The translations under genes were made by a program, and so were the position numbers. From the IMG/VR virus record IMGVR_UViG_3300044477_000049, positions 1 to 42,583 of that record: a stretch of 42,583 nt of DNA; one strand, 5' to 3'. This document shows, one piece after another, positions 11,767 through 27,361 of the stretch. This stretch comes from a virus (lineage: Duplodnaviria > Caudoviricetes). Every line of letters begins with the position of its first letter. Positions within the stretch are counted from its first letter, which is position 1. The notes beneath the pieces were generated by a model. That model saw nothing but the letters and a program-made list of their open reading frames with translations. It ran no database searches and was not told where the DNA came from.

Positions 11767-12251
11767 CAATACTTTCAAATGCACGTCTCAAACAATTTCA
11801 GAGCGCGCCGGGAAAATCAATTGCGGTTGACATCGAACATCACGGAACCGACACCGCTGAATTTTATCAACTCCCCGGATTTCACGGAAAACCTCAAGAC
11901 GGCGCGGAGTGCGTTGTTTTGGATTGTAACGGAAACAATATCGTCATTGCGACGCATGATTATTCGTTCGGGACTGAAATTGAAAAAGGCGAAGCACTGA
12001 TATATTCATACGACTCAGCGGGAGCATTGAAAGCAAAAATATTATTGAAGGTTGATGGTGAAATTGTCATCAATGATGGAACCGATTACGCGGTTAAATT
12101 CAATGAACTTCAAACGGCTTTCAATAAACTGAAAAGTGACTTTGATTTACACACTCACGGCGGGGTTACAACCGGATCAGGATCAACGTCAATGACAACC
12201 GCAAGCACCGCCGATATTGCACCGGCGAAAGTCACGAAGGTTAGAATATGA
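11754..12251 (+). CDS. Baseplate spike (Mu gp45/gpV-like)
   Basis: QLPGFHGKP..GAE and EKGEALIY motifs; C-terminal HTHGGV metal-binding HxH. Confidence 0.88.
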   Translation: MGKIAILSNARLKQFQSAPGKSIAVDIEHHGTDTAEFYQLPGFHGKPQDGAECVVLDCNGNNIVIATHDYSFGTEIEKGEALIYSYDSAGALKAKILLKVDGEIVINDGTDYAVKFNELQTAFNKLKSDFDLHTHGGVTTGSGSTSMTTASTADIAPAKVTKVRI

Positions 12252-12679
12252 ATTACACCGGCGATCTATCAATCGAAGAAAACGCAGACGGAGATTATGA
12301 TCTCTGTTTTGAGAATGGGCAACCGTGCATGACTGACGGGCTGGACACGTACGTAATTCTGGCCGTATATGGTGAGGACTATTGGGGAAATGCAACCGCT
12401 AAATCAGAAGCGGAAAAAATGAAATCAGAATTCCCGTCCGTGATAAAAAGAAATGTGGTTACAGATAAAACAAAAAATGACGGATGCAAGGCAATAGAAA
12501 AAGCACTTGCACCGGCAGTATCGGAAAAAATAGCGCGAAACATTGCAGTCACCGGAGAAATCATAAATGCAAATACAATCGGATGGAAAATAGACATAGA
12601 AGGGATTGACAACAGCGCGTATAAGTATTTCATAAACTGGAGTAAGGGCGCGATCACAGCAAAGATCGTGAGAGGATAA
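12248..12679 (+). CDS. Baseplate wedge protein (Mu gp46-like)
   Basis: DGLDTYVILAVY..YWGN; position in module. Confidence 0.8.
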   Translation: MNYTGDLSIEENADGDYDLCFENGQPCMTDGLDTYVILAVYGEDYWGNATAKSEAEKMKSEFPSVIKRNVVTDKTKNDGCKAIEKALAPAVSEKIARNIAVTGEIINANTIGWKIDIEGIDNSAYKYFINWSKGAITAKIVRG

Positions 12680-25616: not shown

Positions 25617-26234
25617 TCACGAAACAATATATAAAATTTTAAATCTATTCATCATCACGGTCGTCAAAATCAAATCTTTCATGCACAATTTTCCATAAAT
25701 TTCAGACTCCCCGCCGGGGGGGAATCGTTCTCGATTCGGTCCTCCGTTGTATTTTTTATATGCAAGATGCACATCACCATGAGCGCGGGATTTGCAGTAC
25801 ACAAAAAACTTGACTGACGCGGGAATATTTTCTTTGATATTAAATGGATTTTTCACGCCATATTTTTTTTGAATTGCGGGCATAAGTTGACCGACGCCAC
25901 ACGCTCCAGACGGTGACACCGCATAACGATTAAAACCGGATTCATTATGAAAGTATGCCAAAATTTCTTCAAGCGGTTGTTTTTCTCTCCATGCGGCTTT
26001 TCGTGATTCAATGTAGATGTCAAACGTCAATTTTTTGTAATGCGTTTTATACATCGAAAATTCACCGGACATGAAATCTTTAATCTTTTGTTCGTAACGA
26101 TGCTGGAAAAAAATATATGTCACTAGCACCGCAAATATCGACAGCATGACAACCGCCGTAACTGCGATGATGGCAGTTGATAAATTCACTTTCTTTTTTC
26201 GCTTGTAATGACTGACCGGCTTCAATGCGTCCAT
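25617..26234 (-). CDS. Lytic transglycosylase (SLT) with N-terminal membrane anchor
   Basis: ESGFNRYAVSPSGACGVGQLMP, NI and YNGGP motifs; start at MDALKP with RBS AAGGAG. Confidence 0.9.
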   Translation of the reverse strand: MDALKPVSHYKRKKKVNLSTAIIAVTAVVMLSIFAVLVTYIFFQHRYEQKIKDFMSGEFSMYKTHYKKLTFDIYIESRKAAWREKQPLEEILAYFHNESGFNRYAVSPSGACGVGQLMPAIQKKYGVKNPFNIKENIPASVKFFVYCKSRAHGDVHLAYKKYNGGPNRERFPPGGESEIYGKLCMKDLILTTVMMNRFKILYIVS

Positions 26235-26269
26235 TGGTTTCTCCTTTCGTGTATCGCATTTAAACAATT

Positions 26270-26360
26270 TTGATCGGGAGGGACTCGAACCCATCACTTG
26301 TAGTTCAGGCGGTTGTAAATCCTCTCCTGATCCGCGTCTCACCATTTGCGCCACCGATCA
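26270..26360 (-). ncRNA. tRNA-like RNA 1 (atypical anticodon arm)
   Basis: Perfect 7-bp acceptor TGATCGG/CCGATCA; D arm TGGCGCAAATGGTGAGACGC; T loop GGTTCGAGTCC; no canonical anticodon stem-loop; no encoded CCA. Confidence 0.65.
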
Positions 26361-26436
26361 ATCAAATCCAAGATAATAGCCGGTCTCTGATCTCCGTCTT
26401 TATCATGAGTTACTTGTATTTCATCACATGTAATAT

Positions 26437-26457
26437 GTCAATAAATTTATTTGTTGT
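26437..26457 (-). promoter_or_regulatory. Variant of the repeated promoter/operator motif upstream of tRNA-like RNA 1
   Basis: ACAACAAATAAATTTATTGAC(A). Confidence 0.6.
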
Positions 26458-26460
26458 TTG

Positions 26461-26622
26461 TTAAAAAAATATGCGTTTGTCGCGATTCCACGAAAGCGGA
26501 TATCTGCCAACTTTTCTATACTCTTTCGGCGGCGGGATATGATATACGCACTTATGACAGAGTGCGCATCGTGCGGAATGATTTCTTCGTTCGATAGGTA
26601 CGTTACATTTTTTCAGTTCCAT
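26461..26622 (-). CDS. Cys/His-rich 53-aa protein (not in ORF track)
   Basis: RBS GGAG; MELKKCNVPIERRNHSARCALCHKCVYHIPPPKEYRKVGRYPLSWNRDKRIFF*. Confidence 0.55.
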   Translation of the reverse strand: MELKKCNVPIERRNHSARCALCHKCVYHIPPPKEYRKVGRYPLSWNRDKRIFF

Positions 26623-26761
26623 CGGTGACACTCTCCGATTTAATATTTACGTTATATGTTTTTCTGTCTGCAAATTCGGCTTGCTTGCCTTTATTCCATT
26701 GATTGACCGGGCGAAAATATCCGACAACACGCGAATAACACTCAACAGGCATTTTTAACAT
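26603..26761 (-). CDS. Stand-alone NrdD C-terminal glycyl-radical domain (52 aa, not in ORF track)
   Basis: MLKMPVECYSRVVGYFRPVNQWNKGKQAEFADRKTYNV...; matches the YSRVxGYxRP...WNKGK.AEF.DR terminus of class III RNR; RBS GGAG. Confidence 0.85.
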   Translation of the reverse strand: MLKMPVECYSRVVGYFRPVNQWNKGKQAEFADRKTYNVNIKSESVTDGTEKM

Positions 26762-26779
26762 ATAATTATTTTCTCCATG

Positions 26780-26878
26780 TGGGGCATCGGGGATTGAACC
26801 CGATTAGATCGTTTATCATTGTCTGCGGGAGGTGTTGCGCCCAAATCGATCGCAACCGGAACCGCGTCCAGACACCCC
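26780..26878 (-). ncRNA. tRNA-like RNA 2 (large anticodon-arm insertion)
   Basis: Acceptor GGGGTGT/ATGCCCC; D-like hairpin CTGGA-CGCGGT-TCCGG; stem GATCG/CGATC enclosing 35 nt; T arm CGGG-TTCAATC-CCCG. Confidence 0.5.
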
Positions 26879-26880
26879 GT

Positions 26881-26905
26881 AAAAATGCCGGAATTTCACC
26901 GGCAT
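26881..26905 (-). terminator. Intrinsic terminator-like hairpin after the holin candidate
   Basis: ATGCCGG-TGAAATT-CCGGCAT followed by a T run. Confidence 0.65.
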
Positions 26906-26911
26906 AATAAA

Positions 26912-27361
26912 TCACTCAATAATATTTTTGGGTATTGCAGTATAAACGTTTCTCACAATCTTACTGCGATTAGAACCCGTGACGCCCTCGCCCTTGTTAT
27001 CGATATGCAAAAATATGCCGATATAAGTAATTGCACCACCAAGAACAATTCCGATAAGTCCGTCTGAAACTTCATTTACACCGAGAACACGTTGAATAAT
27101 AAGCGCGACCGCCGCACCGACGAGAGCCGTTGAAAAAACGTATGGCGGGAATAGTTTCCCATCGCGGAAAAAGAATTGTCCGACATTCAATCTTTCGGCG
27201 ATTTCTTCAATGACAATCCATGCCGCACCCCATAGCCATTTTGCGAATACTTTTGATTTTTTCACAATCTTCAATATTTGTGACGCACACCATGACGCGA
27301 CGATCGAAATGATATTGAGAATTTTTGTGATGAAACTAAAACTGAACTTTTTGCTTTTCAT
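26912..27361 (-). CDS. Membrane protein, holin candidate
   Basis: Several hydrophobic segments, basic N-terminus, close to the M23 peptidase. Confidence 0.5.
   Translation of the reverse strand: MKSKKFSFSFITKILNIISIVASWCASQILKIVKKSKVFAKWLWGAAWIVIEEIAERLNVGQFFFRDGKLFPPYVFSTALVGAAVALIIQRVLGVNEVSDGLIGIVLGGAITYIGIFLHIDNKGEGVTGSNRSKIVRNVYTAIPKNIIE

What the first reader, a model, noticed from the sequence alone, without database searches (positions are those of the whole stretch)
26270..26905. Cassette of two tRNA-like RNAs flanking the NrdD peptide and a Cys/His mini-protein
Seen, in - strand order: terminator hairpin, tRNA-like 2, RBS and NrdD peptide, overlapping 53-aa Cys/His ORF, promoter motif, tRNA-like 1, SLT gene. 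Both RNAs keep a tRNA top half (acceptor stem, TTCRA T loop, GG-containing D loop) but replace the 7-nt anticodon loop with an enlarged arm whose stem begins GATC. Each lies just upstream of an RBS; the nrdD-peptide GGAG begins 4 nt after the RNA 2 discriminator. Inference: these may be non-decoding tRNA mimics acting as RNase P/Z processing signals that punctuate the mRNA, as decoys for anticodon nucleases or other tRNA-sensing defences, or as a new ncRNA class.
Basis: partly seen in the sequence, partly recalled or inferred. Interest (0 to 1): 0.75.

Follow-up and report, generated by a model that had tools for sequence, protein, structure and literature searches.

The report
Phage tRNA shells lacking an anticodon
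This bacterial virus carries two short sequences that keep the outer frame of a transfer RNA but have no decoding arm; one matches a common phage class that I did not find described in print, and both likely mark places where the host's tRNA-trimming enzymes would cut the virus's long messenger RNA, which is untested.

Summary
Both elements are real: a generic tRNA-frame descriptor finds exactly these two in the 42.6-kb myophage, against 0.005 per shuffled genome. Neither decodes: ARAGORN and Rfam find no tRNA.

RNA 1 belongs to a large phage class. One narrow pattern hits about 960 IMG/VR stretches. In 76 of 94 distinct copies the acceptor pairs 7/7, using 44 different sequences, while the interiors are unrelated and CCA is rare. 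RNA 2 has no family, but a diverged copy occurs in the same sample.

The 'cassette' fails: the nearest relative keeps the NrdD peptide with no shell beside it. The GATC stem is not a class feature (0 of 76), and the Cys/His ORF has no homologue.

Selection keeps the acceptor stem and elbow, which RNase P measures. The likeliest role is a cis cutting signal, like plant mitochondrial t-elements (0.45). Rivals are a released scaffold or decoy RNA (0.25) and decay in this genome (0.2); RNA 1 folds worse than all 76 class members. No RNA data were found. The scan noted this class before on other DNA (e1-6056126).

The parts
26881..26905 (-). Hairpin plus T5 tail (intrinsic-terminator-like), ending 1 nt before RNA 2
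   Evidence: 7-bp stem, -11.2 kcal/mol, z -2.8; inside the stretch kept in the diverged contig
26779..26879 (-). RNA 2: tRNA shell, 101 nt. Gln-like acceptor with C1-A72 mismatch and two G-U pairs, D arm with GG, 52-nt interior starting with the TTGCG/CGCAA hairpin (11-nt loop), perfect T arm, no CCA
   Evidence: Descriptor hit; folds; diverged copy in run X1; not hit by the class models; acceptor likeness to tRNA-Gln(UUG) of L205-L215
26773..26776 (-). GGAG ribosome-binding site of the NrdD peptide, 3 nt after position 73 of RNA 2
   Evidence: Sequence
26603..26761 (-). Stand-alone 52-aa NrdD C-terminal peptide (YSRVVGYFRP; its glycine is the radical site by recalled knowledge); a neighbour, not part of the RNA elements
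   Evidence: Pfam PF13597 profile 533-562, E 6e-10; 87 viral relatives; 66 of the 69 loci with the motif are short ORFs
26461..26622 (-). 53-aa Cys/His ORF with a GGAGAG upstream; orphan, not shown to be a gene
   Evidence: No Pfam or PHROG hit, no homologue, sequence not in the protein collection, low Atlas scores
26436..26457 (-). Repeated phage promoter/operator-like motif (ACAACAAA..ATTTAT) running into TTGACA, about 80-100 nt before RNA 1
   Evidence: 4 copies (31781, 26457, 20226, 16469), all on the minus strand ahead of gene blocks; 0.005 per shuffle; motif defined after seeing the sites
26270..26360 (-). RNA 1: tRNA shell, 91 nt. Acceptor TGATCGG/CCGATCA 7/7, Leu/Ser/Tyr-type D arm, 38-nt interior, T stem with one bulge, A73, no CCA
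   Evidence: 38.2 bits, E about 3e-8 with model R2, built without its acceptor family; next best window hit 13.4 bits; five acceptor-family relatives
25617..26244 (-). GGAG and the SLT lytic transglycosylase gene (205 aa, ATG 26234), 35 nt after RNA 1
   Evidence: Pfam SLT E 2.7e-12; homologues of 192-205 aa align from the same start

Best explanation
The two elements are independent tRNA 'shells' that keep the acceptor stem, D loop and T loop of a tRNA but have no anticodon arm, and they likely act as built-in cutting signals: host RNase P would cut at the 5' edge and a 3' tRNA-trimming nuclease would cut after position 73, dividing the phage's long leftward transcript. Shown: the shells, their intergenic places, and the class-wide conservation of the frame with a free interior. 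Inferred: a cut before RNA 2 would leave the upstream mRNA ending in the 26905-26881 hairpin, a protected 3' end. The shell, or the cut behind it, would set the 5' end of the NrdD-peptide mRNA. RNA 1 would do the same for the transcript that starts at the 26457/26441 promoter motif and carries the SLT gene. The NrdD peptide and the Cys/His ORF are neighbours, not partners.
For: (1) What is conserved is what RNase P measures: it binds the T-arm/acceptor stack and measures from the elbow without reading sequence (PMC4919913, passages). Of 94 distinct class copies, 76 pair 7/7 in an acceptor that was not in the search pattern, using 44 different sequences; cross-paired controls give 10% and slid controls 0-1%. 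(2) The interior is free: 40-70 nt by that pattern, up to 150 nt, mean folding z -0.7. Among 29 copies with one acceptor, only 2.5% of interior pairs beat the 99th percentile of shuffles. RNA 1's five relatives keep the frame, show G-C, G-U, A-U and U-A at 1:72, and have unrelated interiors. (3) CCA is encoded in 5 of 94 shells against 47 of 105 ordinary tRNAs in the fetched loci; C74 is kept in 77 of 94. (4) Context: 21 of 31 shells without a tRNA neighbour have an ATG of a >=40-aa ORF within 40 nt downstream (random positions 334 of 1410; ordinary tRNAs 21 of 105). 19 of 69 have a strong hairpin in the 45 nt upstream, against 5 of 75 downstream and 4 of 74 farther up, as RNA 2 does. (5) Precedent: t-elements with the same GGTTCRANYCC motif end at mapped mRNA termini in Arabidopsis mitochondria (PMC1920247, passages), and bacterial RNase P cuts mRNAs and phage RNAs (PMC4919922, passages). 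(6) The nearest relative G006 has a 202-nt shell 30 nt before a gene and a twister ribozyme match about 680 nt upstream of it, so this phage group likely cuts its leftward transcripts.
Against: No transcript or cleavage data exist here. Closeness to genes and hairpins is expected for anything in a tight intergenic space; I had no matched intergenic control. 16 of the 47 shells scored sit near tRNA genes, and only 2 of those 16 have a gene start within 40 nt. The window's copies fold poorly: forcing the frame costs 4.4 kcal/mol for RNA 1 (more than all 76 class members; median 0, maximum 3.3) and 2.9 for RNA 2. RNA 1's acceptor has pair probability 0.04. A cut after RNA 2 would leave only 2-3 nt before the GGAG. 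The position is not conserved: G006 has no shell before its NrdD peptide. The same conservation pattern would follow if the released shell, not the cut, were what matters.
Confidence: 0.45

Rival explanations
1. The shell is a stable carrier or decoy that acts in trans. It is cut out by tRNA enzymes, likely gains CCA, and then either displays its interior to a partner or soaks up host proteins that bind the tRNA elbow or 3' end, such as tRNA-sensing defence enzymes.
For: Same frame conservation. 49 of 76 interiors keep a stem ending 1-3 nt before the T stem, against 33.8 +/- 3.9 in shuffles, so some interior structure is selected. 25 of 76 lie near ordinary tRNA genes. T4 RNAC and RNAD are expressed small RNAs of the tRNA region with unknown role (PMC3014915, PMC9697503, passages). 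RNA 1's tip contains TT-TAC-AA, like a Val anticodon loop (sequence; likeness recalled).
Against: Interiors are unrelated even under one acceptor. Anticodon-like tips are at chance level, 12 of 76 against 11.8. For 9 of 9 enlarged shells the longest exact match to their own genome is 10-11 nt, as for shuffles; host targets could not be searched. 44 acceptor sequences argue against one specific amino-acid or enzyme target.
Confidence: 0.25
2. The class is functional, but the two copies in this genome are decaying remnants that no longer fold or get cut.
For: RNA 1 has a T-stem bulge absent from its relative L219, which has the same 3' T strand, plus an extra D-loop base and the worst frame energy of 77. 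RNA 2 has C1-A72, two G-U pairs, a D stem with pair probability 0.0 and no family among 14 + 73 pattern hits.
Against: RNA 1's acceptor is still 7/7 and scores 38 bits; RNA 2's T arm is perfect. A diverged contig in the same sample aligns over hairpin plus RNA 2 (26776-26909, 17 substitutions, 7 insertions) while both flanks differ, and no insertion falls in the acceptor or T arm (chance 0.08 to 0.23, so weak).
Confidence: 0.2
3. RNA 2 is a tRNA-Gln(UUG) interrupted by a 28-nt intron at the canonical 37/38 position, and splicing would restore a decoding tRNA.
For: Gln-like acceptor. The GATCG/CGATC helix is followed by A-T-TTG-G on one side and AA on the other, and three of four bulge-helix-bulge central pairs can be drawn by eye (sequence; motif rules recalled).
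Against: That helix has probability 0.05 against 0.95 for the competing hairpin. [quoted passage not shown] There is no outer helix. The host is a bacterium (SLT and M23 genes), and bacteria generally lack the splicing endonuclease (recalled). The diverged copy has insertions inside that helix and loop. RNA 1 cannot yield U33.
Confidence: 0.05
4. The elements are by-products of integration into host tRNA genes (attachment-site fragments).
For: Integration is a common source of tRNA fragments (PMC9897764, passages).
Against: Both acceptor strands are present and complementary across 44 sequences. RNA 1's pattern has 0 hits in the prokaryote genome collection. A simple tyrosine-recombinase motif scan of the window found nothing (a weak test).
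Confidence: 0.03

Closest known systems
t-elements of plant mitochondria (Forner et al. 2007, PMC1920247; passages read)
   Same: tRNA-like structure with the GGTTCRANYCC T arm and a non-canonical cloverleaf, placed at mRNA boundaries; proposed cis signal for RNase P and RNase Z
   Different: Organelle, not phage. Their ends were mapped by experiment, and nothing is mapped here. The phage class keeps a full D loop and covarying 7-bp acceptors around a 38-150 nt interior.
T4 RNAC and RNAD (PMC3014915 and PMC9697503; passages read)
   Same: Small non-coding phage RNAs from a tRNA region with unknown role
   Different: They sit in a tRNA cluster, whereas this phage has no tRNA gene. Their tRNA-like ends are recalled, not seen in these passages. 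No sequence comparison was made.
C4 antisense RNA of phages P1/P7 (cited as an RNase P substrate in PMC4919922)
   Same: Phage RNA matured by host RNase P
   Different: No Rfam match; no complementary targets in the genome; the shells keep true tRNA D and T loops.
Engineered tRNA scaffolds for recombinant RNA (PMC3401473, search listing only; design recalled)
   Same: Anticodon loop replaced by foreign RNA inside an intact tRNA frame
   Different: Natural, the interior is not conserved, and CCA is mostly not encoded.
Allo-tRNAs and irregular tRNA polycistrons (PMC5389517 listing only; PMC7609411 passages)
   Same: Non-canonical tRNA-like genes from metagenomes, some not used in translation
   Different: Those have 8/4 or 9/3 acceptor branches and anticodons; these shells are 7/5 with no anticodon arm.

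Membership tests
Canonical tRNA gene | 7-bp acceptor stem | tested here: inconclusive
   RNA 1 7/7; RNA 2 6 bp under a C1-A72 mismatch
Canonical tRNA gene | 5-bp T stem with 7-nt TTCRANY loop | tested here: inconclusive
   RNA 2 5/5; RNA 1 needs a one-base bulge
Canonical tRNA gene | 5-bp anticodon stem with 7-nt loop and U33 at positions 27-43 | tested here: not met
   RNA 2 has an 11-nt loop plus 31 further nt; RNA 1 has an elongated arm
Canonical tRNA gene | Detected by ARAGORN or Rfam RF00005 | tested here: not met
   0 genes; no tRNA hit at E<=10. tRNAscan-SE was not available.
Phage tRNA-shell class (defined here) | D arm with GG, T arm and paired acceptor around an enlarged interior, no CCA | tested here: met
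   Both meet the descriptor; interiors 38 and 52 nt; tails AAAT and CATG
Phage tRNA-shell class (defined here) | Match to a covariance model built from independent members | tested here: inconclusive
   RNA 1: 38.2 bits, E about 3e-8. RNA 2: no hit at E<=5; the model covers only the Leu/Ser/Tyr-type D arm.
Phage tRNA-shell class (defined here) | The frame is the favoured fold | tested here: not met
   Cost 4.4 (RNA 1) and 2.9 kcal/mol (RNA 2) against class median 0 and maximum 3.3 of 76
t-element (works-like comparison) | GGTTCRANYCC motif within a tRNA-like fold outside a tRNA gene | tested here: met
   Both RNAs
t-element (works-like comparison) | Element ends coincide with mRNA termini made by RNase P or Z | not testable with these tools
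   Needs RNA data or cleavage assays
tmRNA tRNA-like domain | G3-U70 alanine pair and tag frame | tested here: not met
   A3-U70 in RNA 1, G3-C70 in RNA 2; ARAGORN and Rfam find no tmRNA
Y RNA / YrlA | Rfam match; permuted layout with closed acceptor end | tested here: not met
   No Rfam hit; both shells have ordinary 5' and 3' acceptor ends
Y RNA / YrlA | Ro60 gene nearby | tested here: inconclusive
   None among the 20 and 18 ORFs scanned; not all window ORFs were scanned
C4/CI-type antisense RNA | Complementary target sites in the same genome | tested here: not met
   Longest exact match 10-11 nt, equal to shuffles
Intron-containing tRNA (bulge-helix-bulge) | Complete motif whose removal restores a canonical anticodon arm | tested here: not met
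   Partial central helix only, non-canonical product, helix probability 0.05
Conserved RNA-NrdD-peptide cassette | Shell directly upstream of the NrdD peptide in other phages | tested here: not met
   Of 80 loci, model hits lie only in L006, L029/L030 (0.7-1.2 kb away) and L023 (ordinary tRNA region); none in nearest relative G006

The most novel reading that the evidence does not exclude
Phages widely recycle tRNA genes into anticodon-free shells that use the host's RNase P and 3' trimming enzymes as a punctuation system for protein-coding operons. This would be mitochondrial-style tRNA punctuation in bacterial viruses, and each cut would also release a stable tRNA-shaped RNA with a freely swappable cargo.
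Probability: 0.35. Interest if true: 0.8.

Novelty: new variant of a known kind. Interest (0 to 1): 0.55.

Why it matters
If the cutting model holds, hundreds to thousands of phage elements that tRNA finders skip or mislabel would be working expression signals. That would give one answer to the open question of why phages keep odd or 'broken' tRNA genes. The class is also a natural experiment that separates the parts of a tRNA needed for processing from those needed for decoding, and a set of natural scaffolds that tolerate inserts of 40-150 nt. The test is cheap: short synthetic RNAs and two standard enzymes. For this window the gain is smaller, because its two copies are atypical and the proposed NrdD cassette does not hold.

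Tried and rejected
Cassette with NrdD: rejected. ARAGORN was given 60 of the 80 loci; the model search covered all 80; 11 of 80 lacked my motif regex.

Shared GATC stem: rejected.

Antisense action on the phage's own genome: no signal (exact matches only, relatives' records are fragments, host unknown). Shine-Dalgarno-like (RNA 1) and anti-Shine-Dalgarno-like (RNA 2, CACCTCC) words in the interiors are not enriched in the class: 8 vs 6.9 and 0 vs 0.9.

RNA 2 family: two viral pattern scans gave ordinary or long-variable-arm tRNAs and unrelated shells, but no orthologue.

DNA similarity: only 3 chance-level hits in cultured phages; none for relative L081; no significant DNA match beyond 30 nt in 5 related records.

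Syntenic relatives through the SLT gene: none in IMG/VR. No prophage relative through the capsid gene in the genome collection.

Expression: no RNA holder listed, which says nothing either way. The full list of substitutions in the diverged RNA 2 copy was not obtained (3 of 17 listed), so covariation in RNA 2 stays open.

Cys/His ORF: no family or homologue. NrdD peptide: no PDB match at E<=0.1.

The 100% pairing is by selection (rows were chosen for 7/7 acceptors) and is not used as the unbiased figure. Model R1 included RNA 1's acceptor family, so R2 was built without it.

Literature searches found no description of this phage class. The supplements of PMC10690425 (10,006 candidate viral RNAs, five of them tRNA-like in the text) were not opened and may hold overlapping models. 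Most subscription papers are outside the library.

Full report
Setting. The window is a whole 42,583-nt virus record with terminase, ClpP-like protease and tail-sheath-like genes, so a myophage. SLT and M23 genes point to a bacterial host. A capsid homologue at 48% identity lies in a Spirochaetae MAG, a hint only. ARAGORN finds no tRNA or tmRNA, and Rfam finds nothing relevant.

Observation. All listed parts are at the stated places. RNA 1 (26360-26270) has a 7/7 acceptor, a D arm of the Leu/Ser/Tyr type, a 38-nt interior and a T stem with one bulge. RNA 2 (26879-26779) has six acceptor pairs under C1-A72, a D arm with GG, a 52-nt interior and a perfect T arm. Its acceptor resembles the tRNA-Gln(UUG) genes of L205-L215. 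Neither encodes CCA. A generic frame descriptor finds only these two in the window, against 0.005 per genome in 400 shuffles; it was written after seeing them. The proposed GATC-led arm does not hold: in RNA 2 the hairpin TTGCG/CGCAA at the normal anticodon-arm position wins 0.95 to 0.05, and in RNA 1 GATC pairs with the 5' acceptor strand and competes with the frame.

The class. A pattern fixing only the D arm and T loop, with an oversized gap, hits about 960 IMG/VR stretches by the tool's estimate; 120 were returned. They give 95 distinct elements, one cut off by a contig end. Of the other 94, 76 pair 7/7 in the acceptor, which was not in the pattern, using 44 different sequences; cross-paired controls give 10% and slid controls 0-1%. 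All seven positions show changes on both sides. Interiors are weakly structured (mean z -0.7) and unrelated even among 29 copies with one acceptor. They do keep a stem next to the T arm more often than chance (49 of 76 vs 33.8 +/- 3.9), but not anticodon-like tips (12 vs 11.8). ARAGORN of the 76 as tRNAs, and Rfam's tRNA model scores several at 31-42 bits, so the class has a blurred edge with odd type II tRNAs. CCA is encoded in 5 of 94 against 47 of 105 ordinary tRNAs. A model built from 34 members without RNA 1's acceptor family scores RNA 1 at 38.2 bits (E about 3e-8; next hit 13.4) and misses RNA 2. Five elements share RNA 1's acceptor core. With RNA 1, all 6 pair at 1:72, outside the pattern, in four pair types; their interiors are unrelated and none has CCA.

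RNA 2 evidence. Two pattern scans found no orthologue. In the only run that holds this DNA, possibly its source, a separate 317-nt contig at depth 3 aligns over 26776-26909, that is hairpin plus RNA 2, with 17 substitutions and 7 insertions. Its 26 letters beyond the RNA's 3' end do not align, and 80 other letters replace 26910-26977. The insertions fall in the D loop (1) and interior (6), none in the acceptor or T arm (chance 0.08 to 0.23). Only 3 of the 17 substitutions were listed, all interior, so covariation is untested. This fits a conserved unit but is weak.

The cassette. The NrdD peptide is common on its own: 87 viral relatives, 80 kept; 66 of the 69 with my motif are short ORFs. Shells are not tied to it: model hits occur only in L006 and L029/L030, 0.7-1.2 kb away, and in the tRNA region of L023. 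In the nearest relative G006 (capsid 72%) the peptide overlaps the end of a weak homologue of the upstream membrane-protein gene, with nothing between. G006's own shell is 202 nt long and lies about 2.7 kb upstream, 30 nt before another gene. Of the other 4 related records searched, none had the peptide; they are fragments. The Cys/His ORF has no homologue. The stretch between the RNAs ends in a motif found four times ahead of leftward gene blocks, so RNA 1 likely heads its own transcript, while RNA 2 follows a terminator-like hairpin.

Mechanism. RNase P binds the T-arm/acceptor stack and measures from the elbow regardless of sequence (PMC4919913, passages); this is the part the class conserves. 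Arabidopsis mitochondrial t-elements with the same T motif end at mapped mRNA termini (PMC1920247, passages), and bacterial RNase P has mRNA and phage-RNA substrates (PMC4919922, passages). Of 76 shells, 47 were scored for context (10 ARAGORN calls and 19 with too little flank dropped). 21 of 31 without a tRNA neighbour have a gene start within 40 nt, against 2 of 16 with one and 334 of 1410 random positions. Strong hairpins lie just upstream in 19 of 69, against 5 of 75 downstream. G006 also has a twister match upstream of its shell (47.6 bits, E 3e-9, below the curated 67.2). I therefore favour a cis cutting signal (0.45). Every step after 'the frame is conserved' is inference.

Against, and rivals. 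The context counts lack a matched intergenic control. The window's copies fold worse than the class: 4.4 kcal/mol for RNA 1, above all 76, and 2.9 for RNA 2, so decay in this genome is possible (0.2). A trans-acting scaffold or decoy (0.25) predicts the same frame, but has no support from interior conservation, anticodon-like tips or self-complementarity (9 of 9 enlarged shells at chance level); host targets were not searchable. An intron-split tRNA-Gln (0.05) and attachment-site remnants (0.03) fail their tests.

Known versus new. It works like a t-element, if cut; it is not a canonical tRNA, tmRNA domain, Y RNA or C4-type antisense RNA by the tests listed. T4 RNAC/RNAD are the nearest phage precedent, with unknown role (PMC3014915, PMC9697503, passages). 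Nine literature searches found no description of the class. PMC10690425 mentions five tRNA-like viral candidates (passages), and its supplements were not read. Earlier notes of this scan describe similar elements in other phages, and one gave me the t-element lead; these are not independent support. Verdict: real elements, a new variant of a known kind, function untested, cassette claim rejected; interest 0.55.

Noticed in passing
L326:12243-12294 (-), genome G006; duplicated block L326:5325-5688 and 12198-12561: Twister-P1 ribozyme match (47.6 bits, E 3e-9) in a block that occurs twice with identical ORFs, so a second copy is implied; only one was scanned.
   Followed up: partly
L326:8807-8836 (-), genome G006: A single CRISPR repeat (Rfam CRISPR-DR2, 38.8 bits, above cut-off) just upstream of the membrane-protein and NrdD-peptide genes; a possible solitary-repeat RNA anti-CRISPR (label recalled).
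   Followed up: no
L205-L215, matches: Phage tRNA-Gln(UUG) genes with a long variable arm, which is unusual for glutamine tRNAs (comparison recalled).
   Followed up: no
L327:12119-12193 (-), genome G008: tRNA (46.5 bits) whose anticodon arm can be drawn with an 8-nt loop TCTAAAAG; possible suppressor or early step towards a shell.
   Followed up: no
window 31781, 26457, 20226, 16469 (-): Four copies of an ACAACAAA..ATTTAT motif beside TTGACA, each ahead of a leftward gene block; likely a phage promoter or operator.
   Followed up: partly
window 26603-26761 (-) and L001-L080: A stand-alone NrdD C-terminal peptide is widespread in small phages; likely a spare radical-carrying part for a host enzyme. 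Not tested.
   Followed up: partly
L216:2405-2501 (+); L257, L260, L264, L266: Further shells with other D-arm types, so the class is wider than the one pattern counted.
   Followed up: no
L014, L015, L018, about 110 nt upstream of the NrdD motif: A 5-pair T-arm-like hairpin just upstream of the peptide gene; my frame scan found no matching acceptor.
   Followed up: partly
L081, immediately 5' of the shell at 2607 (-): A GCCGG..CCGGC hairpin like the one before RNA 2 precedes RNA 1's relative.
   Followed up: partly
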